Below the pieces are notes generated by a model that did no database searches, was not told where the DNA came from, and saw only the letters and a list, made by a program, of their open reading frames with translations. The translations under genes and the position numbers were made by a program. DNA of 64,000 bases, from positions 5,531 to 69,530 of the IMG/VR virus record IMGVR_UViG_2823949316_000001; one strand, written 5' to 3'. The DNA comes from a virus (lineage: Duplodnaviria > Heunggongvirae > Uroviricota > Caudoviricetes). Below are positions 7,268 through 62,884 of this stretch, piece by piece. Numbering within the stretch: position 1 is the stretch's first letter; every line of letters begins with the position of its first letter.

Positions 7268-10150
7268 ATGGCTCAAGTACCAGCATCAACAATAGAAAGG
7301 GCAAAAGCTGACATCGTCGGTACGATTTCCAAGTACCTTGAACTCAAGAAAGTAGGCCAGGAATACGAGGCCTGCTGTCCATTCCATTCCGAGAAGACTC
7401 CGTCTTTCCGTGTCGTACCGGAAAAGCGCTTCTTCTACTGTTTCGGCTGCGGAGCTGGCGGTGATGCCACTGACTTCGTCCAAGACTTCGAAAGCATCGG
7501 CTTTCGTGATGCCATAGCGCGCATTGTTAATGACCAGTCCATTGGTGACGCCGTTCCCAAGGCCCGACAGACGGTCAAAAAAGAGGTCGAGGCCGAGTGG
7601 GAGCCAGTCGTTCCAGTGCCGGCCAATATCAAGCAGCGGCCCATGGATACCTTCAACCGTCGCAAGGGCGGTGAGTGGGAGAGGCTGGTCAGCAGCAAGC
7701 GCTGGGAGTACCGCGACGCCAATGGCGGACTGATCGGCTACATCTGCCGCTTCGAGCTGCCCGGTGGTGGCAAAGACGTCATCCCTCAGACCTACTGCGT
7801 TAACAAGCAGACCGGCGAGATGCGCTGGAAGTGGCTGTCGTTCGCGAAGCCGCGCCCGATCTATGGTCTCGACAAGCTGGCGAAGCATCCGCTCGCCCAG
7901 GTGATCCTCGCTGAGGGCGAGAAGGCGGCAGACGCCGCCCAGGCGCTGTACGAGGCGGCTGGCATCTCGCGTGACAAGCTGGTGGTGGTCTCCTGGCCGG
8001 GCGGCGGCAAGGCCGTGCCTCACGTCGACTGGTCACCCCTGGCGGGCCGCAACGTGGGCCTGTGGCCCGATGCCGACCAGAAGCCTTACGTCGACACGCA
8101 CCCCAAGGCCGGCCAGCTCATGCCCTTCATCGAGCAGCCGGGCGCCGTGTGCATGCTCGACATCGCCGAGCGCATCGAGGGTCAGGTCAACTCCCTGAAA
8201 TTCATCATGCCGCCGGAAGGTGTCGAGGATGGCTGGGATCTGGCCGACGCGCTGCCGGCCGGCTTCAACCTGCTGGCTCACACCCGGGCAGCAGCCATGC
8301 CGATCGCCGACTTCCGTGAGAAGCACGTTCCGGCCGCTGAGCCAGAGCAGATCATGCCCTGGGACGACGAGCCGGACGCTGATGACATCGCGCTGGCCTG
8401 TGGGGTCGATCCTGCGCCGGTCGCCGAGCAGCAGGCCCAGGCCCCAGCACCAGCCGCCCCGCAGCCGAAGCCGGCGCCGGGTGATGACTGGGAAGACCCG
8501 CTGATCAAGAACGGGCACTTCACCATCCTGGGCTACGACCGCGGCAAGTATTACTTCTTCGTCCACGAGAAGCGTCAGGTCATGGCCTACCAGAAGGGCG
8601 ACTTCAGCGACGCGGGCATGCTCGAGCTGGCTGAGATCAACTGGTGGGAGGAGCACTTCCCGGGCGAGCGGGGCAGCATGAACAAGAAGATGGCCCTGAA
8701 CTGGATCTTCCGCACCGCCAACCGCCGCGGCGTCTACGACCCGGAGCGCGTGCGCGGCCGCGGCGCCTGGACGGACAACAAGCGGGCCGTGTTCCACCAT
8801 GGCGGCCATCTCACCGTCGACGGCGTCTACACCGACATCACGGCCATGCGCTCTGCCTACGTCTACCAGGTCGAGCGGAGCATCCCGGCTCCAGCCGTCG
8901 AGCCCATGACCGACGAGGAGGGTTCCTGGCTGGTCAGCGTCGCCGAGATGGCCCGCTGGAGCATGGCCGGCAGTGCTGCCCTGCTCGCTGGCTTCGTCAT
9001 GCTCGCGCCGATCTGTGGCGCGCTGCCGTGGCGCTCGCACATCTGGCTGACCGGCGGCGCCGGGTCGGGCAAGTCCACCCTGCAGAGCAAATACGCGGCC
9101 TCGCTGCTGCGCGGCGTGTCGGTGTACGCCACCGGCGACAGTACCGAGCCCGGCATCCGCCAGAGCCTGCAAGCTGACTCCCTGCCGGTGCTGATCGACG
9201 AGATCGAGTCGAACAACGACAACGACAAGCGCCGCGTCGAGAACATCATCGGCATGATCCGCAAGACCTCGACCGAGAGCCAGGCCCAGACGCTGAAAGG
9301 CACTGTGTCCGGAGACGGCCAGAGCTTCCACGTCCGCTCCATGTTCTGCCTGGCGTCGATCAACGTGAACATGCCCAGCAAGGCCGACACCGACCGCCTG
9401 ACCAAGCTGGTGCTGCGCCCGCCGATCGCCGACAGCCGCGACCACTGGGACAAGCTCGAGGCCGAGCTGAACAAGATCGAGGAAGACGAGGACATTTCAA
9501 GCCGCCTGCTGGCGCGCGCCCTGGGCATGATGCCGGTCATCCTGGAGACCGTGAAGGTGTTCCGCCGGGCTGCCGCCAAGCACTTCGGCACCCAGCGCCA
9601 GGGCGACCAGTTCGGCACCCTGCTCGCCGGCTCCTGGTGCTTGCAGAAGAGTACCGTGCCTTCCGAGGAGGAGGCCATGGTGCTGATCCGCGGCTACAAC
9701 TGGAATGAGCACGTCGAGGACAACGACCAGGACGACGCGGCCCGCGCTGTCGAGGCCCTGCTGGGCGCCAAGCTGCGCGCCAAGAGCCTCGGCGGTAGCA
9801 CCGACGAGTACAGCGTCTACGAGCTGATCCGCGAGTGCTCTCCGATGCACCGCCACAACGTCATTGATGTCGGGGTCGCAGACGCGACCCTGAAGCGCCA
9901 CGGCATCCGCGTCGAGCACGCCACCGGCGAGCTGTGGTTCGGTACCAGCGTGACCAACCTGGTGCAGATGGCCAGCGGCATGTCCTTCGTCACCGACCTG
10001 CGCGGCCAGCTGCTCAGGGTCAAGGGCGCCAAGCGCATCAGCGGCAGCAAGAAGTTCAACGGCTCGGACAGCAAGGTGGTGAGCATCCCGCTGGATCCGA
10101 TCCTGGGCGATGAGAAGGAGGCGGGCAGCAGCGACGATCTGCCGATCTAG
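7268..10150 (+). CDS. Phage DNA primase (CHC2 zinc finger, DnaG-like) fused to a P-loop NTPase (helicase/origin-binding-like) domain, 960 aa
   Basis: N-terminal CCPFHSEKTPSFRV...FYCFGCGAGGD zinc finger. Central acidic, Pro-rich linker. C-terminal Walker A LTGGAGSGKST and Walker B VLIDEIE. Confidence 0.85.
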   Translation: MAQVPASTIERAKADIVGTISKYLELKKVGQEYEACCPFHSEKTPSFRVVPEKRFFYCFGCGAGGDATDFVQDFESIGFRDAIARIVNDQSIGDAVPKARQTVKKEVEAEWEPVVPVPANIKQRPMDTFNRRKGGEWERLVSSKRWEYRDANGGLIGYICRFELPGGGKDVIPQTYCVNKQTGEMRWKWLSFAKPRPIYGLDKLAKHPLAQVILAEGEKAADAAQALYEAAGISRDKLVVVSWPGGGKAVPHVDWSPLAGRNVGLWPDADQKPYVDTHPKAGQLMPFIEQPGAVCMLDIAERIEGQVNSLKFIMPPEGVEDGWDLADALPAGFNLLAHTRAAAMPIADFREKHVPAAEPEQIMPWDDEPDADDIALACGVDPAPVAEQQAQAPAPAAPQPKPAPGDDWEDPLIKNGHFTILGYDRGKYYFFVHEKRQVMAYQKGDFSDAGMLELAEINWWEEHFPGERGSMNKKMALNWIFRTANRRGVYDPERVRGRGAWTDNKRAVFHHGGHLTVDGVYTDITAMRSAYVYQVERSIPAPAVEPMTDEEGSWLVSVAEMARWSMAGSAALLAGFVMLAPICGALPWRSHIWLTGGAGSGKSTLQSKYAASLLRGVSVYATGDSTEPGIRQSLQADSLPVLIDEIESNNDNDKRRVENIIGMIRKTSTESQAQTLKGTVSGDGQSFHVRSMFCLASINVNMPSKADTDRLTKLVLRPPIADSRDHWDKLEAELNKIEEDEDISSRLLARALGMMPVILETVKVFRRAAAKHFGTQRQGDQFGTLLAGSWCLQKSTVPSEEEAMVLIRGYNWNEHVEDNDQDDAARAVEALLGAKLRAKSLGGSTDEYSVYELIRECSPMHRHNVIDVGVADATLKRHGIRVEHATGELWFGTSVTNLVQMASGMSFVTDLRGQLLRVKGAKRISGSKKFNGSDSKVVSIPLDPILGDEKEAGSSDDLPI

Positions 10151-42705: not shown

Positions 42706-43499
42706 TGGTGCAGGTACTGGCCAAGGCCCGGGTGAAGGGCTACGCGAAAAAGGACGGCACCTACGTCAAGCCGCATGACCGGAAGGAGGCGCCGGCCGCG
42801 GCGCGCCCCGAGCAGAAGCAGCTGCGCCTGCCTACCGAGACGGACGAGATTTTGCATCATCACCCCAAGGCCGGGGAGAACGGAGCCCAGGTCGTGTTGA
42901 AGAAGCCCAGCCACCCGAGCGCGCCCAGCACCTGGCACAGCCCGACCGCCGTGGCGACCTTCGTACCTGACGGCGACGTGCCGCTGTCGATCAACGGCGT
43001 CCGGCTCAGCCCCTGGAAGGATCACCCGACCACCAATGAGGGCTGGGATTACGTCGACGGCGTCAACGACGACCTCTGGGAGCCGGCATTCATCCTGCCA
43101 CCCGGTAAGAAGGCGGCCAGCGGCGTGGTCATCGAAGAGCCTGATGGGCGTGTGTGGTTGATCCACCCGACCAACCAGTTCGGCGGGTACCACGCCAGTT
43201 TCCCCAAGGGCACGGCCGAGCCGGAGCTGTCGCTGCAGGCGAACGCCATCAAGGAGGCGTTCGAGGAGTCAGGCCTGAAGGTCGAGATCACCGGCTTGCT
43301 GGGGGACTACGAAAGGACAACGTCTGTAGCTCGAATTTACACAGCCAGGCGCGTAGGCGGAACGCCAATTGCGATGGGCTGGGAGTCGCAAGCTGTCAGC
43401 CTTTGCCCTGTCGAACACCTCTATGAGCTGCTGAATGTTTGGGCTGATCACGGAATAGCTGAAGCGATCGGCGCCGGGCCGATACCGAAAGTAAAATGA
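42705..43499 (+). CDS. NUDIX hydrolase with basic N-terminal extension (264 aa)
   Basis: Nudix box GGYHASFPKGTAEPELSLQANAIKEAFEESGLKVEI (GX5EX7[RK]EuXEEXGu pattern, Lys in place of Arg). Confidence 0.7.
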   Translation: MVQVLAKARVKGYAKKDGTYVKPHDRKEAPAAARPEQKQLRLPTETDEILHHHPKAGENGAQVVLKKPSHPSAPSTWHSPTAVATFVPDGDVPLSINGVRLSPWKDHPTTNEGWDYVDGVNDDLWEPAFILPPGKKAASGVVIEEPDGRVWLIHPTNQFGGYHASFPKGTAEPELSLQANAIKEAFEESGLKVEITGLLGDYERTTSVARIYTARRVGGTPIAMGWESQAVSLCPVEHLYELLNVWADHGIAEAIGAGPIPKVK

Positions 43500-44137
43500 A
43501 CGTAGTCAGCCGAGCAGAAGCACGCGAGCAGGGCCTAAAGCGCTACTTTACTGGGGCGCCTTGCAAGCGCGGACACATCGATGAACGCTTCACTGCCTCT
43601 ACGAGATGCGTCTCGTGCAACGCGATCATCTGTGCCGGATGGAAAGCCGGGAACAAAGACCTGAAGGATGAGCTTGATCGCGAGTACCGGAGCAACAATC
43701 GCGAGAGGCAGAAGAAAAATTCGTCCGATTGGTACAGCCGGAACCGCGACCTCACCATTGAGAGAGCCCGCCAGCATGCCCAGAAGTCGCCGGAGGCTCA
43801 GGCAAAGAAGAAGCGGGAGTGGAAATTCAGGAATCCTGATAGCTCCACGTTTCACTCCGCACTGCGTCGAGCCAGGAAAAGCGCGGCAATGCCAGCCTGG
43901 TTCGGCGAGCTTGACGAGTTCGTATGGGATGAGGCTGCTGAGCTCGCCATCCTGAGACGCGCTGCTACTGACATCAGCTGGGCGGCTGATCACATGATCC
44001 CGCTAGCTTGCAAAAAGGCCTGTGGGCTGCACGTCTGGAATAACTGCCAGGTGATCCCTGCGTACCTGAATGGACGCAAGGGCAACAAGCTGATCCTCAC
44101 TGAGCCGGACGAATGGCTTGCACGTATAAGCAAGTAA
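43496..44137 (+). CDS. HNH endonuclease (213 aa)
   Basis: Cys-rich N-terminus. C-terminal ...AADHMIPLACKKACGLHVWNNCQVIPAYLNGRKGN (H-N-H/N). ATGA-coupled. GC content is lower than neighbours. Confidence 0.7.
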   Translation: MNVVSRAEAREQGLKRYFTGAPCKRGHIDERFTASTRCVSCNAIICAGWKAGNKDLKDELDREYRSNNRERQKKNSSDWYSRNRDLTIERARQHAQKSPEAQAKKKREWKFRNPDSSTFHSALRRARKSAAMPAWFGELDEFVWDEAAELAILRRAATDISWAADHMIPLACKKACGLHVWNNCQVIPAYLNGRKGNKLILTEPDEWLARISK

Positions 44138-52392: not shown

Positions 52393-53073
52393 TCATTCGT
52401 CGCATTCTTCTTCCTCGGCAGCCATCGGCCCGTGATCTGGGCAGTGTGGCGGCCCTACTTCATCCAGCCATTTGCGCGAGACGCGCGCCACGTAACCGCA
52501 ATCTGCGCAGAGCACCTTCATCAGGCGGGTGGTCTGCTTCTTCGGAGCGTTGGTGATCAGCTCCTGCAGCTTGTCGCCCGCCAGGCCTTCCCGGATGCCC
52601 TTGGCGATCAGGCCGGCGCCTTGTGGGCGTTTGCCGGACGGGAACAGGCCCTCTGGGCGCCACTGCAGCTTGCCGTGTGGCAGTTGGCCCAGCTCGTCGA
52701 TGAAGGGCTGCACCCATGCCTCGAACACTGGTGTCGGCACCGTGCAGGTGAATGGCTTGGTCATGCCGATCAGCATCATGAGCCGTTTGAAATTGCCCTT
52801 GTGGCCCTCCTGGAGCCCGACCGCCACGTGGCAGAGCTCGTGCGCCAGATAGGCGGTCACCATCATCGGGCGATCCTCATCCGGACGGATCAGGATCTCG
52901 AACTTGCCGTCAGCGCTGGCCACGTCCGACCAGACCTCGGCGGCCGCGCGGGCGTTCTGCCCGCCGGAGGTGAAGCCGATCGAGACGCGGAATGGCTTGA
53001 GGGGGAAGCCGAGCTCGGCGAAGCGCGGAGCCATACGCTCCGCGATCGCGTTCAACCATGTTTCCCTGTTCAC
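52393..53073 (-). CDS. SprT-like zinc metalloprotease domain protein with C-terminal zinc ribbon (226 aa)
   Basis: HExxH motif AYLAHELCHVAV. C-terminal CADCGY...CPDHG. Confidence 0.7.
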   Translation of the reverse strand: MNRETWLNAIAERMAPRFAELGFPLKPFRVSIGFTSGGQNARAAAEVWSDVASADGKFEILIRPDEDRPMMVTAYLAHELCHVAVGLQEGHKGNFKRLMMLIGMTKPFTCTVPTPVFEAWVQPFIDELGQLPHGKLQWRPEGLFPSGKRPQGAGLIAKGIREGLAGDKLQELITNAPKKQTTRLMKVLCADCGYVARVSRKWLDEVGPPHCPDHGPMAAEEEECDE

Positions 53074-53789
53074 GGCTTGGCCTGATCAGGTACGCCCTTG
53101 TTCAGCATGCTGCGCACACTCTCGACCAGCTCTACAGGCGCCAGGGCCTGGGTTTTCTTCGCTGGCTGAGGCAGAAGCTTGCCGGCTTCAGGAAAAATAT
53201 CGATCAACTGACGGGATGTGCGGCAAGAGCTGATGACGTTAGTTGCCTTCGCATGGAATTCGACGGCCGCCCTCAAGATATCCAGCAGCTGTTCTTTGAC
53301 TGCGCTGGCCTGTTTGGCGATCTTGCTGCCAGCCTCTACCTCTCCCATGCCGTTCAGACGAGGGACTGAACCATTGGTCGACGTGAACTGGAGCTCGTAG
53401 TTATCGTAGTAGCCTTCCTTGCGAACGAAGCTGGCAACCTGTGCGTACTCAGGTGTTTTGAGGATGGTTTTAAAAATATCGAGACGCGCGCTCTCGTCGC
53501 TGCGGTGGCGGGAGAAGGCGATCCGCAGAGGGTTCCCTTGTCCGGGCACCGAAAGGCTCTCCCGCGTGGTTGCCGCCACGACACCGGCGGCGATCAATTC
53601 TGGGTAGCGCTTCGGATCGATCTGCAGAACCTTCCCGACCGCGGCAGCGTGATCGGCCCAAAACTGCTCGTTCAGCTTGGTAAGAGTTGCACCGATGCGC
53701 TTGCCATGCTTCGCGACAGCCTGCTGTGTGAGTTGGTCTACAACGCGCTCGCGCATCTCTTTGGATAGCGCAAAAGATTGAGTGGTCAT
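53070..53789 (-). CDS. Hypothetical protein (239 aa)
   Basis: ORF-track protein. RBS AGAAGGAAAGGAAATG. ATGA-coupled to the SprT-like gene. Confidence 0.55.
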   Translation of the reverse strand: MTTQSFALSKEMRERVVDQLTQQAVAKHGKRIGATLTKLNEQFWADHAAAVGKVLQIDPKRYPELIAAGVVAATTRESLSVPGQGNPLRIAFSRHRSDESARLDIFKTILKTPEYAQVASFVRKEGYYDNYELQFTSTNGSVPRLNGMGEVEAGSKIAKQASAVKEQLLDILRAAVEFHAKATNVISSCRTSRQLIDIFPEAGKLLPQPAKKTQALAPVELVESVRSMLNKGVPDQAKP

Positions 53790-59961: not shown

Positions 59962-61470
59962 ATGGACGCAAACTCCCTACTCGCTCAGCTTGCCAGCAGC
60001 GCAACTGCTACGAGCGGCGGCAACTCCCAGCTCGGCGGCTCGATGGGCGGCGCAGGCGCTGACCTGCTGAAAGCCCTCGAGGCCAGCAACTACCAGACCG
60101 ACGTCGCCACCCTGGACGGCGGTGGTGCTCTCGGCATCCAGTCGCTGGACACCGCGATGAAGACCGTTGTTCAGGAAGAGAAGCACTTCACCCTGTTCAA
60201 CCGCCTGCAGCGCACCAACGCCACCAACATCGTCGACGAGTACACCCGTCAGAACAACATCGGCGGCTTCCTGGGCGGCTCGACCAACACCCAGATGGGT
60301 CAGGTTCGCGCGGCTACCGGCGAATACAAGCGCGAAGTTGGCTTCGTGAAGTTCCTGATGACCCTGCGTCAGGTCGGTTACGTGCTGAACGTCGGCAACA
60401 ACCTGGCCCAGCCGCTGGCTGTCGAAGAGCGCAACGGTGCCAAGCAGCTGCTCACCGACGCCAACTACCTGCTGTATCACGGCAACGCTGATGCCAGCCC
60501 GACCCAGTACGACGGCATCATCAAGCAGATCGAAGACGGCGTTTCCAAGGGCGAGATCGCTCCGGAAAACGTCATCGACATGCAGGGCAAGAAGCTCGAC
60601 AGCGTCGAGGCCTTCAGCCAGGTCAACGTTTCCGTGGGCAACTACGGTTCGTGGGGCCGCAGCACCGACGTGTTCCTGCCGATGAGCGTGCAGAACGACC
60701 TCAACCAGGGTCTGGATCCTGCCTTCCGCTGGACTCCGCAGGGCATGAACACCCCGATGGTCGGTGGCCATGTCGAAGGCATCCGTCTGCAGGGTGGCGT
60801 TCTGCGCACCAACGAAGACACCTTCATCCATAACGAGTACCACCCGATGGTGTCGCCGTTCGAGGTGACTCAGCCGGTCGTGGCCGCTGCCAACGCCGCA
60901 TTCAAGCCTGCCAGCATCGCCGGCGTGGCTGCTGCCGACGCATCGTCCCAGTTCACCAGCACTCGTGCCGGTAACTACTTCTACGCTGTCGCCGGTATCG
61001 GCGCCAACGGTGAAGGCCTGACTGCTGTCGTGAAGTCGGCCCAGGTCGCAGTTGCTGCGGGCAACAAGGTCACCCTGACCATCACCCCGTCTGCCGCGAA
61101 CTCCGAAACTGGCTACGCGATCTATCGCAGCCGCCAGAACGGCAGCAACGACACCGCCGACATGCGTCTGGTGAAGGTCATCGCGAAGGCCCAGGGTGCC
61201 AACACCGTGTTCGTCGACCTGAACCGCGACATCCCGGGCACCGTCACTGTGCCGCTGCTGAACATGGACACCGGCGCCGATGCCATCGGCTGGCGTCAGT
61301 TCCAGCCGATGACCAAGATCCCGCTGCCCTTCGGTGTCGGTGGTGTCCCGGTTCATTCCTGGTTCCAGTTTCTATTCGGTTACCTCCGCGTGACCAAGCC
61401 GAAGCACCACGGCATGATCAAAAATATCTTGCCCTCAAACTCGAAGTGGCGCCCGCACCAAGGGGAGTAA
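59962..61470 (+). CDS. Putative major capsid protein (502 aa)
   Basis: Large Gly/Ala/Thr-rich structural-looking protein following the scaffold. Very high codon adaptation (third-position G/C). Assignment by synteny. Confidence 0.55.
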   Translation: MDANSLLAQLASSATATSGGNSQLGGSMGGAGADLLKALEASNYQTDVATLDGGGALGIQSLDTAMKTVVQEEKHFTLFNRLQRTNATNIVDEYTRQNNIGGFLGGSTNTQMGQVRAATGEYKREVGFVKFLMTLRQVGYVLNVGNNLAQPLAVEERNGAKQLLTDANYLLYHGNADASPTQYDGIIKQIEDGVSKGEIAPENVIDMQGKKLDSVEAFSQVNVSVGNYGSWGRSTDVFLPMSVQNDLNQGLDPAFRWTPQGMNTPMVGGHVEGIRLQGGVLRTNEDTFIHNEYHPMVSPFEVTQPVVAAANAAFKPASIAGVAAADASSQFTSTRAGNYFYAVAGIGANGEGLTAVVKSAQVAVAAGNKVTLTITPSAANSETGYAIYRSRQNGSNDTADMRLVKVIAKAQGANTVFVDLNRDIPGTVTVPLLNMDTGADAIGWRQFQPMTKIPLPFGVGGVPVHSWFQFLFGYLRVTKPKHHGMIKNILPSNSKWRPHQGE

Positions 61471-61498
61471 TGGCGTCCACACGCTAGAGTGAGTTAGA

Positions 61499-61522
61499 AT
61501 GGCGGCCTTTATAGGCCGCCAT
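61499..61522 (+). terminator. Perfect 9-bp-arm hairpin ATGGCGGCC-TTTATA-GGCCGCCAT + TTCTATTT after the capsid gene
   Basis: Strong stem-loop 29 nt after the capsid stop. The ORF-track start at 61499 runs through it, so the real downstream start is taken at 61535. Confidence 0.6.
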
Positions 61523-61534
61523 TTCTATTTGACC

Positions 61535-62437
61535 ATGCCAAAATTTACGATCGACGAATGCTTTGAAGAGGCAAAAAAATACAGCGCGAGAGTTGATTTT
61601 TTCAAAGGAAGCCCGGCCGCATACGCCGCTCTTCAGAAAAGAAAACTGCTTTCTGATGCTTGCTCCCACATGACGCTTTCTCCCAGGTATTCGTACACGC
61701 GCTGGGACGTTGCATCGGCATTCGCTGAGGCAGCGAAATACAAAAATCGAGCTGAGTTCAAGCGCAAATGTCCTGGCGCCTACGAGTTCGCGCTGGCCAA
61801 CGAAATCCTAGACCAGGCATGCTCAACAATGCGTAGTGGGCATCGCTTTTGGCACCTGTTTGAGCTTATGGCGGTCGCGCTGAAGTATGATGACTGGGGT
61901 CAATTTCAAAGGCATGAGCGTCAAGCCTACACTTACGCTACGAAATACAAGCTGCAGGCTCTAGCTAGCTCTCACATGAAAAAGTTGCGCATCACCTGGA
62001 CAAAGGATTTGGCAATGGCCGAGGCCGCCAAGCACCAGTCGCGCGGACTATTCCAGGCAGCAGCCTCCGGCGCCTACAAGCACGCCGATCAATATGGTTA
62101 CCTCGACGAGGCGTGTGCCCACATGCCGCCACCGGAGTATGGGTTCTCGAAGGAAAAGCCGTCCGTGCTTTACCATCTCCGCATCACCACCCCTAGCGTC
62201 GTGCTCTACAAAATCGGCATTACAAACCGAGATCCTGCCGCAAGGGTGAAAGGCATGGGAGTGCCGGCGGGCACTGATGTCGAGGTTCTGGACATGATCA
62301 AATTTGAATCTGGTCGTGATGCCAGAATCGCAGAGAAGCGTTTGCATCGGCGGCATGCCGAGCATCGCTACACTGGAGCGCCGGTGTTGAAGAACGGAAA
62401 TACCGAGCTTTTCACCGTCAACGTTCTCGAAATTTAG
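61535..62437 (+). CDS. T5orf172/GIY-YIG-superfamily domain protein with four ~60-aa N-terminal tandem repeats, encoded in a low-GC insertion
   Basis: C-terminal ...VLYKIGITNRDPAARVKGM...DARIAEKRLHRRH...GNTELF (T5orf172-like). Repeats KYxxRxxFxxxxxGAYxxAxxxxLLDEACxHM x4. GC content is clearly below flanking genes. Confidence 0.55.
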   Translation: MPKFTIDECFEEAKKYSARVDFFKGSPAAYAALQKRKLLSDACSHMTLSPRYSYTRWDVASAFAEAAKYKNRAEFKRKCPGAYEFALANEILDQACSTMRSGHRFWHLFELMAVALKYDDWGQFQRHERQAYTYATKYKLQALASSHMKKLRITWTKDLAMAEAAKHQSRGLFQAAASGAYKHADQYGYLDEACAHMPPPEYGFSKEKPSVLYHLRITTPSVVLYKIGITNRDPAARVKGMGVPAGTDVEVLDMIKFESGRDARIAEKRLHRRHAEHRYTGAPVLKNGNTELFTVNVLEI

Positions 62438-62455
62438 CGATCAGAGGATCCTTCC

Positions 62456-62884
62456 ATGCCCCGCGTAATTTGTGACCTGCCGTTCGCCAGCGATCTGATC
62501 AACGGCGTTGCATTCCATCCGCTCGACCAGGGCGGCAAGATTTCCGACGACATCGAGACCGAGCTGGCCGAGTGGTTCGCCACCATCCCCGGCTACAAGC
62601 TGGACGAGGAAGGCACCGAGCCCGAGGCGCCGGTAGTGACCCCGCCCCCGAAGCTGACCAAGGCCCAGCAGAAGGCTGCCGATAAGGCTGCCGCGCAGAA
62701 GGCCGCGGAAGAAGCGGCAGCCAAGGCGAAGCCCGAGGCTCCGGCGACCACCGAGACCGCTGCAACCGAGTCCCAGGCCGAGACCCAGTCTGAGGGCGAC
62801 ACCCAGACCGAAACCCAGTCCGAAACCGAAACTGAGACCGAAGCCACGGCCTCGGAAGAAGGTTCGCAGGACGCAGTGTTCTAA
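62456..62884 (+). CDS. Hypothetical protein (142 aa) with Ala/Lys-rich and Thr/Glu-rich low-complexity tail
   Basis: ORF-track protein. RBS GAGGATCC. Confidence 0.45.
   Translation: MPRVICDLPFASDLINGVAFHPLDQGGKISDDIETELAEWFATIPGYKLDEEGTEPEAPVVTPPPKLTKAQQKAADKAAAQKAAEEAAAKAKPEAPATTETAATESQAETQSEGDTQTETQSETETETEATASEEGSQDAVF

What the first reader, a model, noticed from the sequence alone, without database searches (positions are those of the whole stretch)
61499..62437. Low-GC insertion after the capsid gene encoding a T5orf172/GIY-YIG-like protein with four tandem ~60-aa repeats
Immediately after the capsid gene terminator (a perfect 9-bp-arm hairpin) the GC content drops. A 300-aa protein carries four repeats of KY..R..F.....GAY..A....LDEAC.HM and a C-terminal T5orf172-type GIY-YIG-like module (KIGITNRD...R...E..ELF). 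Free-standing homing-endonuclease-like genes between capsid and downstream structural genes are classic selfish insertions. The repeat domain may be the DNA-recognition part.
Basis: partly seen in the sequence, partly recalled or inferred. Interest (0 to 1): 0.55.

Follow-up and report, generated by a model that had tools for sequence, protein, structure and literature searches.

The report
Selfish nuclease gene behind capsid gene
A phage in a Microvirga genome carries, right behind its major capsid gene, a gene for a GIY-YIG-type (T5orf172) nuclease fused to four helical repeats; most related phages lack the gene, so it is very probably a homing-endonuclease-type selfish gene of a recently described class and not a new kind of system.

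Summary
An ORF at 61499-62437 (true start most likely 61535, 300 aa) lies between the major capsid gene and the next conserved head gene. Its GC is 53% against 63% for the window. It has four ~50-aa (not ~60-aa) helical repeats and a C-terminal T5orf172/MUG113 domain with a GIY-YIG fold and invariant Tyr/Arg/Glu.

Comparative evidence supports a mobile homing-endonuclease-like gene. Nineteen of 20 relatives sampled through the capsid gene have an empty site (stop, terminator, RBS, next gene). Homologues occupy exactly this site in at least 14 other phage contigs. Occupied and empty genomes interleave on the capsid tree, and nuclease similarity does not track capsid similarity.

Three points are new. 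A terminator-like hairpin (AATGG-stem-CCATT) is conserved with compensatory changes in 11 occupied sites and seems to belong to the inserted segment. The repeat is not the CapR/DUF723 zinc finger described for T5orf172 genes; it has no Pfam model and no PDB structural relative. The repeat is very widespread (4378 clusters) and usually flanks canonical GIY-YIG domains.

Cleavage, target site and homing are untested. I rate it a new member of a known kind, of moderate interest.

The parts
59962..61470 (+). Major capsid gene (502 aa), the left flank of the insertion. Its 3' end (..GYLRVTKPKHHGxIKNILPSNxKWRP..) is highly conserved and is a candidate location of the nuclease target.
   Evidence: 84% aa identity to the annotated major capsid proteins of phages Jeremy and Dolphis. 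Conservation of the 3' end is shown.
61495..61531 (+). Terminator-like hairpin belonging to the inserted segment: TAGAATGGCGGCC-TTTATA-GGCCGCCATT followed by a T-rich run that abuts the start codon. Stem 61498-61507 / 61514-61523.
   Evidence: The 75-nt stretch folds at -31.8 kcal/mol, z = -5.5. The motif occurs once in the window. It is conserved in 11 occupied loci, with 99% of stem cells paired and 6 of 10 stem pairs showing compensatory changes. The same motif is not seen at the empty sites.
61535..62437 (+). Homing-endonuclease-like gene, 300 aa plus stop. The maximal ORF starts at 61499, inside the hairpin.
   Evidence: The AlphaFold model has mean pLDDT 91.5.
61535..62128 (+). Four tandem helical repeats: R1 61535-61675, R2 61676-61834, R3 61835-61981, R4 61982-62128. 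Each is a ~50-aa unit of four short helices with consensus W.....EA.KY..R.EF......AY..A...G.LD..C.HM. Putative DNA-recognition array.
62159..62434 (+). C-terminal T5orf172/MUG113 domain (aa 209-300) of the GIY-YIG superfamily: beta-beta-alpha-beta-alpha, with invariant Y213, K226, G228, R237, E267 and E291.
62456..62884 (+). Conserved gene downstream of the capsid gene (142 aa, N-terminus MPRVICDLPFAS..ING..F), with its RBS AGAGGA at 62442-62447. This is the right flank. In empty-site phages it follows the capsid terminator directly.

Best explanation
The gene encodes a free-standing, site-specific nuclease of the T5orf172 branch of the GIY-YIG superfamily that behaves as a homing-endonuclease-type selfish gene in a clade of ~92-96 kb myophages (relatives of Pseudomonas phages Jeremy and Dolphis and of Bordetella phage PHB04).

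Proposed mechanism:
1. The gene sits between the capsid terminator and the RBS of the next head gene. It has no Shine-Dalgarno sequence of its own, so it is made only at low level, from late transcripts that read through the hairpin.
2. When a genome that carries the gene and a related genome that lacks it share a cell, the basic N-terminal array of four helical repeats binds a long asymmetric target. That target is most likely in the conserved coding sequence next to the insertion point, either the 3' end of the capsid gene or the 5' end of the next gene.
3. The C-terminal GIY-YIG-type domain, tethered by a short linker, cuts nearby.
4. Recombinational repair using the occupied genome as template copies the hairpin-plus-nuclease cassette, and some flanking sequence, into the recipient.

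Shown here: the domain architecture, the fold, conservation of catalytic-type residues, sporadic presence at one conserved site, incongruent phylogeny, and the break in homology at the capsid stop codon.

Inferred: DNA binding by the repeats, cleavage, the identity of the target, immunity of the carrier genome, and the expression route.
For: Domain and fold:
- Pfam MUG113 and T5orf172 score above their cut-offs, and PHROG 681 'endonuclease' matches.
- Y213, R237 and E267 are invariant in 73 homologues and align with the GIY Tyr and the catalytic Arg and Glu.
- A T5orf172 protein, ICP1 Odn/Gp88, is an experimentally shown sequence-specific nuclease that depends on the equivalent Glu (PMC8263062).

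Sporadic presence at one site:
- 19 of 20 relatives sampled through the capsid gene have the site empty.
- Full-length homologues lie directly after a capsid homologue in L004-L012, L029-L034 and L036.
- Occupied and empty genomes interleave on the capsid clustering. For example L004(+) is nearest to L013(-) at 91.6% and the window(+) is nearest to Jeremy(-) at 84%.

Incongruence:
- Capsid identity and repeat-domain identity are uncorrelated (rho = -0.21).
- L006 has a 49% capsid but a 54%/68% nuclease protein (repeat part/C-terminal part). L012 has a 76% capsid but only 31% in the repeats.

Other:
- Homology between L004 and L013 (~90% nt) ends at the capsid stop codon.
- Nuclease-gene GC is 3-12 points below the capsid-gene GC in all 9 occupied loci measured.
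- The class, T5orf172 putative homing genes with N-terminal repeated DNA-binding modules, 31% of them near capsid genes, is described in PMC10448857.
Against: - No cleavage, target site or homing event is shown here. Homing by T5orf172 proteins had not been verified experimentally even for the ICP1 genes (PMC10448857).
- All homologues are old (at most ~70% nt identity to the window gene). There is no case of a recent transfer with a sharp co-conversion tract.
- No consistent sequence difference between occupied and empty flanks was found that could mark the target or explain immunity.
- The gene is intact with conserved residues in every occupied genome looked at, with no decayed copies. That fits selection for a function as well as it fits ongoing homing.
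- Lower GC in every host could reflect weak codon selection in a poorly expressed gene instead of foreign origin.
Confidence: 0.7

Rival explanations
1. The protein is a domesticated nuclease or DNA-binding protein that serves the phage and does not spread itself. It could be a weapon against competing phages or satellites, as ICP1 Odn is, or a regulator of the capsid operon, as the satellite protein CapR is. Presence or absence would then reflect selection in different hosts.
For: T5orf172 proteins are known in both roles: Odn cuts a satellite's replication origin (PMC8263062) and CapR is a repressor derived from such a gene (PMC10448857). All copies examined are intact with invariant catalytic-type residues and no pseudogenes, and all are anciently diverged. 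A weak PADLOC hit to PD-Lambda-1 covers the nuclease domain.
Against: A fixed position between two conserved head genes, absence from 19 of 20 relatives sampled through the capsid gene, interleaving of occupied and empty genomes, and incongruence with the capsid tree are the classic signature of a site-specific selfish gene. A defence or competition gene would not need to land at one intergenic site in phages whose capsids are only 49% identical. The two readings are not exclusive: T4 seg/mob genes both spread and exclude competitors' markers.
Confidence: 0.2
2. The gene is an ancestral accessory gene of this phage clade, inherited vertically and lost many times. Its low GC is only a consequence of low expression, so it is not mobile.
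For: The gene is old and present in several deep branches, including the 49%-capsid lineage (L006, L030-L032). GC is lower in every host.
Against: Nuclease similarity does not follow capsid similarity, and two very different repeat-domain types occur in phages with ~78% identical capsids. The conserved upstream hairpin is shared by occupied loci across lineages, while empty sites carry unrelated terminators. This reading requires many independent, precise deletions that each restore a terminator-RBS junction.
Confidence: 0.07
3. The conserved hairpin next to the gene is the nuclease's own substrate or a cis element needed for mobility, by analogy with the single-strand-specific GIY-YIG Ssn nucleases whose genes are flanked by the hairpin repeats they cut. 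On this reading it is not simply a transcription terminator.
For: The lower stem (AATGG/CCATT) and the upstream TAnA are conserved in sequence, while the upper stem co-varies. The hairpin travels with the gene. Ssn genes are flanked by hairpins that the enzyme cleaves in ssDNA (PMC11893778).
Against: The element has the full anatomy of an intrinsic terminator: an A-tract, a GC-rich stem and a T-run. It occupies the place where empty-site phages have their capsid terminator. It occurs only once in the window. Ssn proteins are small single-domain enzymes without repeat arrays.
Confidence: 0.05

Closest known systems
T5orf172-family putative homing endonuclease genes of phages (ICP1 gp53/gp121/gp130/gp174 and relatives; Barth, Dunham and Seed 2023, PMC10448857)
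   Same: A free-standing gene with a C-terminal T5orf172 nuclease domain and an N-terminal array of repeated small modules ('beads on a string'). It is located next to an essential gene (31% of the published set lie near capsid genes), is variably present among related phages, and marks a boundary where homology between phages breaks. The window's nuclease domain is 41% identical to that of proteins with the published CapR/DUF723/DUF4379 architecture.
   Different: The N-terminal modules are not the Zn-finger CapR/DUF723 domains found in 87% of the published set. They are ~50-aa all-helical units without a conserved four-ligand metal site, and no Pfam model matches them. The host clade, ~94-kb Jeremy/PHB04-like phages in a Microvirga genome, is new. 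A conserved hairpin accompanies the gene.
ICP1 Odn (Gp88), an origin-directed T5orf172 nuclease (PMC8263062)
   Same: A T5orf172 catalytic domain with conserved Arg and Glu. It is the only relative for which sequence-specific double-strand cleavage and dependence on the Glu (E180A) are shown.
   Different: Odn takes its specificity from a RepA_N domain and acts against a satellite. It is not a gene that spreads to an empty allelic site.
Free-standing GIY-YIG homing endonucleases of T-even phages (SegA-G) and the intron-encoded I-TevI
   Different: The domain order is reversed: the nuclease is C-terminal here and N-terminal in I-TevI and the Seg proteins. The second Tyr of the motif is replaced by Lys (KIG instead of YIG). 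The DNA-binding part is a four-unit helical repeat array, not the Zn finger, NUMOD helix and HTH.
Repeat-array GIY-YIG proteins of Vibrio and metagenomes (e.g. P0093, annotated only as 'GIY-YIG nuclease family protein')
   Same: The same ~50-aa repeat, at 30-45% identity per unit. In a sample of 80 such proteins, 47 carry a canonical GIY-YIG domain (PF01541).
   Different: In those proteins the catalytic domain is canonical GIY-YIG, sits in the middle of the array, and is flanked by up to ~10 repeats. Their function is uncharacterised as well.

Membership tests
T5orf172 / MUG113 domain (Pfam clan GIY-YIG) | Significant match to the family profile above the curated cut-off | tested here: met
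   PF13455 MUG113 scores 36.5 bits (cut-off 22.3, E = 7e-9) and PF10544 T5orf172 scores 24.5 bits (cut-off 20), over aa 220-297.
T5orf172 / MUG113 domain (Pfam clan GIY-YIG) | GIY-YIG fold (three-stranded sheet with flanking helices) | tested here: met
T5orf172 / MUG113 domain (Pfam clan GIY-YIG) | Catalytic-type residues retained (Tyr of the first strand, Arg of helix 1, Glu of helix 2) | tested here: met
   Y213, R237 and E267 are invariant in 73 homologues. hhalign places them on the Y, R and E of canonical GIY-YIG domains, with K226 in the place of the second Tyr (E = 0.004, which is weak).
T5orf172 / MUG113 domain (Pfam clan GIY-YIG) | Endonuclease activity | not testable with these tools
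   Known only for a relative, Odn (PMC8263062).
Free-standing homing endonuclease gene | Stand-alone ORF inserted between conserved genes without disrupting them | tested here: met
   The gene lies between the capsid stop/terminator and the RBS of the next gene. Both flanking genes are intact and collinear with Jeremy, Dolphis and PHB04.
Free-standing homing endonuclease gene | Sporadic presence or absence at the same site among close relatives | tested here: met
   19 of 20 relatives sampled through the capsid gene are empty. At least 14 other contigs are occupied at the same site. The two states interleave on the capsid clustering.
Free-standing homing endonuclease gene | Gene phylogeny incongruent with that of the host genome (horizontal spread) | tested here: met
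   Pairwise identities are uncorrelated with capsid identity (rho = -0.21 for the repeat domain); L006 and L012 are clear discordant cases. This rests on 9 loci and on identities, not on reconciled trees.
Free-standing homing endonuclease gene | Cleavage of the empty allele near the insertion site, with immunity of the occupied allele | not testable with these tools
   Comparing occupied and empty flanks showed no discriminating positions.
Free-standing homing endonuclease gene | Super-Mendelian inheritance with co-conversion of flanking markers | tested here: inconclusive
   Homology between L004 and L013 breaks at the capsid stop codon, and the 5' part of the next gene is also diverged. No recent transfer with a clean conversion tract was found.
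CapR / DUF723 / DUF4379 zinc-finger DNA-binding repeats of T5orf172 genes | Match to these profiles, or a CxxC...CxC metal-binding motif in each repeat | tested here: not met
   No Pfam hit to PF21817, PF05265 or PF14311 even at E <= 1. Proteins that do have them (P0107, P0109) align only with the C-terminal domain. The repeats are all-helical and only C..H.M is semi-conserved.

The most novel reading that the evidence does not exclude
The ~50-aa four-helix repeat is an undescribed nuclease-associated DNA-recognition module that reads its target modularly. It is very widespread: 4378 cluster representatives, arrays of 2 to about 10 units, and attachment to T5orf172 or canonical GIY-YIG domains. 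In this phage clade the array has diversified into at least two specificity types at one homing site, while the catalytic domain stayed conserved. The cassette also carries its own conserved terminator hairpin as a functional part.
Probability: 0.3. Interest if true: 0.6.

Novelty: new member of a known kind. Interest (0 to 1): 0.4.

Why it matters
The finding adds a clean natural example of a T5orf172-type selfish nuclease gene. It has one fixed site, many occupied and empty alleles, and cultured empty-site relatives (Pseudomonas phages Jeremy and Dolphis, Bordetella phage PHB04) whose junction sequences are ready-made test substrates. Homing by T5orf172 proteins had not been shown experimentally when the class was described in 2023, so such a system would allow the test.

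The repeat module is the more valuable by-product. It is abundant, has no family model and no structural relative, and is almost always attached to GIY-YIG-type nucleases. If it is a modular DNA reader, it would help in understanding, and possibly re-targeting, this nuclease class.

Tried and rejected
- ATG 61499 as the start: rejected. It lies in the hairpin stem, and in L004 the corresponding ATG runs into an in-frame stop.
- Hairpin as the native capsid terminator: rejected in favour of 'part of the insert'. Empty sites have unrelated hairpins, while 11 occupied sites share this one.
- TAGAAT upstream of the stem as a -10 promoter box: not supported. By eye there is no -35 box (not tested with a tool), and the A-rich stretch pairs with the T-run as in an ordinary terminator. 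The promoter scan found nothing on this strand.
- Other copies of the hairpin motif or of the gene in the window: none.
- Diagnostic differences between occupied and empty flanks, to locate the target: none seen.
- A recent transfer with a sharp identity boundary: none; all copies are at most ~70% nt identical to the window gene.
- Sequence search of PDB with the family profile: one spurious hit.
- Foldseek against PDB with the full model: nothing with E < 0.39.
- NCBIfam: no family.
- PADLOC: only a weak hit of the nuclease domain to PD-Lambda-1.
- Literature searches for the repeat module and for phage Dolphis found nothing relevant.
- Whether the phage is integrated was not settled. The protein occurs on a 1.44-Mb NCBI contig of Microvirga lupini and on a separate 92.6-kb contig assembled from a sequencing run.

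Full report
**1. What is in the sequence**

The window region 58-64 kb is a phage head module. It contains a maturation protease (PHROG 1028), a 209-aa ORF, a 502-aa major capsid protein (59962-61470), the ORF in question, and a 142-aa gene (62456-62884).

The whole window looks like phage DNA: primase, methylase, large terminase and portal. The exact protein is deposited as 'hypothetical protein FHR70_000743 [Microvirga lupini]' on a 1.44-Mb contig. It also lies on a separate 92,590-bp contig assembled from a sequencing run, which is the genome size of the closest phages.

The ORF runs 61499-62437. Its first ATG lies inside a hairpin: arms 61498-61507 and 61514-61523 (10 perfect pairs), loop TTTATA, then a T-rich run. 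The 75-nt stretch holding it folds at -31.8 kcal/mol, z = -5.5. In homologous loci the coding sequence starts at the ATG that follows the T-run, and in L004 the hairpin ATG is followed by an in-frame stop. The start is therefore most likely 61535, giving 300 aa.

GC is 53.2% against 63.2% for the window, and GC3 is 60% against 82% in the capsid gene.

**2. The protein**

- *C-terminal domain.* Residues ~209-300 match Pfam MUG113 and T5orf172 above their curated cut-offs and PHROG 681 'endonuclease'.
- *Model.* An AlphaFold model built on 73 homologues is confident (pLDDT 91.5). Each repeat is a small four-helix unit joined by less confident linkers. The C-terminal domain is beta-beta-alpha-beta-alpha.
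- *Catalytic-type residues.* Y213, K226, G228, R237, E267, Y279, G281 and E291 are invariant across the 73 homologues. A profile-profile alignment with canonical GIY-YIG domains puts Y213 on the GIY tyrosine, K226 on the YIG tyrosine position, R237 on the catalytic arginine and E267 on the catalytic glutamate (E = 0.004, weak but consistent).
- *Experimental precedent.* A T5orf172 protein, ICP1 Odn, is a proven sequence-specific nuclease that needs this glutamate (PMC8263062).

**3. It is an insertion relative to most relatives**

The nearest phages in GenBank are Pseudomonas phages Jeremy and Dolphis (capsid 84% aa) and Bordetella phage PHB04. DNA similarity to Jeremy and Dolphis ends at the capsid stop codon. 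In all three phages the capsid gene is followed by a GC-rich terminator, an AGGAG RBS and the homologue of 62456-62884, with 65-108 nt between the annotated genes.

I then sampled relatives through the capsid protein in IMG/VR and in GTDB genomes. Of 17 loci, 16 have the same empty arrangement and one (L029) is occupied. Overall 19 of 20 are empty.

**4. The same site is occupied in other phages**

All seven homologues whose contigs I looked up lie directly after a ~500-aa capsid gene and before the same small gene. These homologues are 38-68% identical to the window protein, and several of their contigs are 92-96 kb. Six more IMG/VR loci are the same (L030-L034, L036).

The family is not confined to this site. 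L035, L039 and the Burkholderia jumbo phages BcepSauron and BcepSaruman carry it elsewhere.

On a clustering of capsid proteins, occupied and empty genomes interleave:

| Occupied locus | Nearest empty locus | Capsid aa identity |
|---|---|---|
| L004 | L013 | 91.6% |
| window | Jeremy | 84% |
| L012 | PHB04 | 82% |
| L029 | L015 | 86% |

Between L004 and L013, ~90% nucleotide identity runs up to the capsid stop codon and then collapses. The first part of the downstream gene is diverged too.

**5. The gene does not follow the phage**

Among nine occupied loci, capsid identity and repeat-domain identity are uncorrelated (rho = -0.21).

- L006 has a capsid only 49% identical to the window's, but a nuclease protein 54% (repeats) and 68% (catalytic domain) identical.
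- L012 has the most similar capsid among the occupied loci (76%), but repeats only 31% identical.

The repeat arrays fall into at least two types: A (window, L004, L005, L006, L010) and B (L007, L009, L012), with L029 apart. The catalytic domain stays 56-76% identical between and within A and B. Repeat number varies from 4 to 5, and probably 6.

This modularity matches what Barth et al. describe for T5orf172 genes (PMC10448857).

**6. GC**

In all nine occupied loci measured, the gene's GC is 3-12 points lower than that of the adjacent capsid gene, in genomes ranging from 51% to 64% GC. The drop is therefore a property of the family in every host. It is compatible with repeated movement, but also with weak codon selection in a poorly expressed gene. 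It is not proof of recent arrival in this genome.

**7. The hairpin belongs to the insert**

Eleven occupied loci share TAnAATGG-(variable stem)-loop-(variable stem)-CCATT, then a T-run and the start ATG (GTG in L009). In the 10-pair stem, 99% of cells are paired and 6 pairs show changes on both sides. No shuffle or slid control reaches this.

Empty sites have unrelated GC-rich hairpins, and the motif occurs once in the window. The upstream A-rich bases pair with the T-run, as in an ordinary intrinsic terminator. I therefore read it as a terminator that replaced the resident one when the cassette arrived.

The nuclease ORF starts right after the T-run without a Shine-Dalgarno sequence. This predicts low expression by read-through, which is an inference. 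Three occupied loci (L029, L031/L036, L032) have other hairpins.

**8. The repeat module**

It is not the CapR/DUF723/DUF4379 zinc finger that accompanies 87% of published T5orf172 genes. There is no Pfam hit at E <= 1, and proteins with those fingers share only the C-terminal domain with ours, at 41% identity.

Nothing in the PDB resembles it:
- profile search;
- Foldseek, E >= 0.39;

A full HMMER scan of 1.84 billion representatives with residues 1-198 finds 4378 proteins at E <= 0.001 and 2197 at E <= 1e-10. Many are 400-970 aa with up to 10 matched stretches.

Of 80 of the best hits, 47 carry a canonical GIY-YIG domain (PF01541), which in the examples and family consensus examined lies in the middle of the array. 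One carries T5orf172 and one a restriction-endonuclease domain.

The array is basic (pI 9.3). Its near-exclusive association with GIY-YIG-superfamily nucleases is the main argument that it is the DNA-recognition part. Binding itself is untested.

**9. Verdict**

The interpretation as a selfish homing-endonuclease-type insertion is supported by every comparative test I could run. Cleavage, target and homing remain to be shown.

The kind is known: T5orf172 putative homing genes next to capsid and other essential genes, with repeated N-terminal modules (PMC10448857). This is therefore a new member of a known kind. Its two less ordinary features are an uncharacterised, very widespread helical repeat in place of the zinc fingers, and a co-travelling conserved hairpin.

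Confidence in the main explanation is 0.7. The main rival is a domesticated competition or regulatory nuclease, which is not mutually exclusive (0.2).

Noticed in passing
window 43496-44137 (+): A second low-GC ORF (213 aa, GC 57% against 63%) matches PHROG 1035 'endonuclease VII' (5e-21). It has tblastn matches in 240 phage records; those listed are mostly annotated endonuclease VII or HNH endonuclease. It may be another free-standing nuclease gene in this phage.
   Followed up: partly
window 53070-53789 (-): A low-GC ORF (239 aa, GC 57%) matches Pfam Nmad5 (nucleotide modification associated domain 5, 4e-10) and PHROG 15487 ('DNA polymerase').
   Followed up: no
L009 9385-10023; L012 1554-2090; L006 1-2049: Related phage contigs carry other homing-endonuclease-type genes in the head and replication modules: a GIY-YIG+NUMOD3 gene between head-tail genes (L009), a NUMOD3 gene (L012), and a helicase gene with a LAGLIDADG_3 hit, possibly an intein (L006). 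This phage clade seems rich in such elements.
   Followed up: no
L001 (Jeremy PV565041) 8425-8892; L002 (Dolphis MT711888) 8421-8870: The gene after the capsid gene is annotated from an internal ATG in both GenBank records. The conserved N-terminus (MPRVICELP.. in Jeremy, MFRVICELP.. in Dolphis) begins 51 nt upstream, right after an AGGAGA RBS.
   Followed up: partly
window 61499 vs 61535: The NCBI annotation of this gene (FHR70_000743, 312 aa) starts at an ATG buried in the hairpin stem. Homologues support the 300-aa start at 61535.
   Followed up: yes
L025 4838-5153: One 'empty' relative has a ~320-nt spacer with a small extra ORF between the capsid gene and the next gene. Its hairpin begins GACGAATGGCGGCC, which resembles the 5' arm of the cassette hairpin. 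It could be a remnant of a lost cassette or a coincidence.
   Followed up: no
window 1-64000 / L047: The same protein is found both on a 1.44-Mb Microvirga lupini contig (NCBI) and on a separate 92,590-bp contig assembled from run SRR10143751. Whether the phage is integrated, episomal or a co-assembled contaminant is open. No tRNA genes were found in the window.
   Followed up: partly
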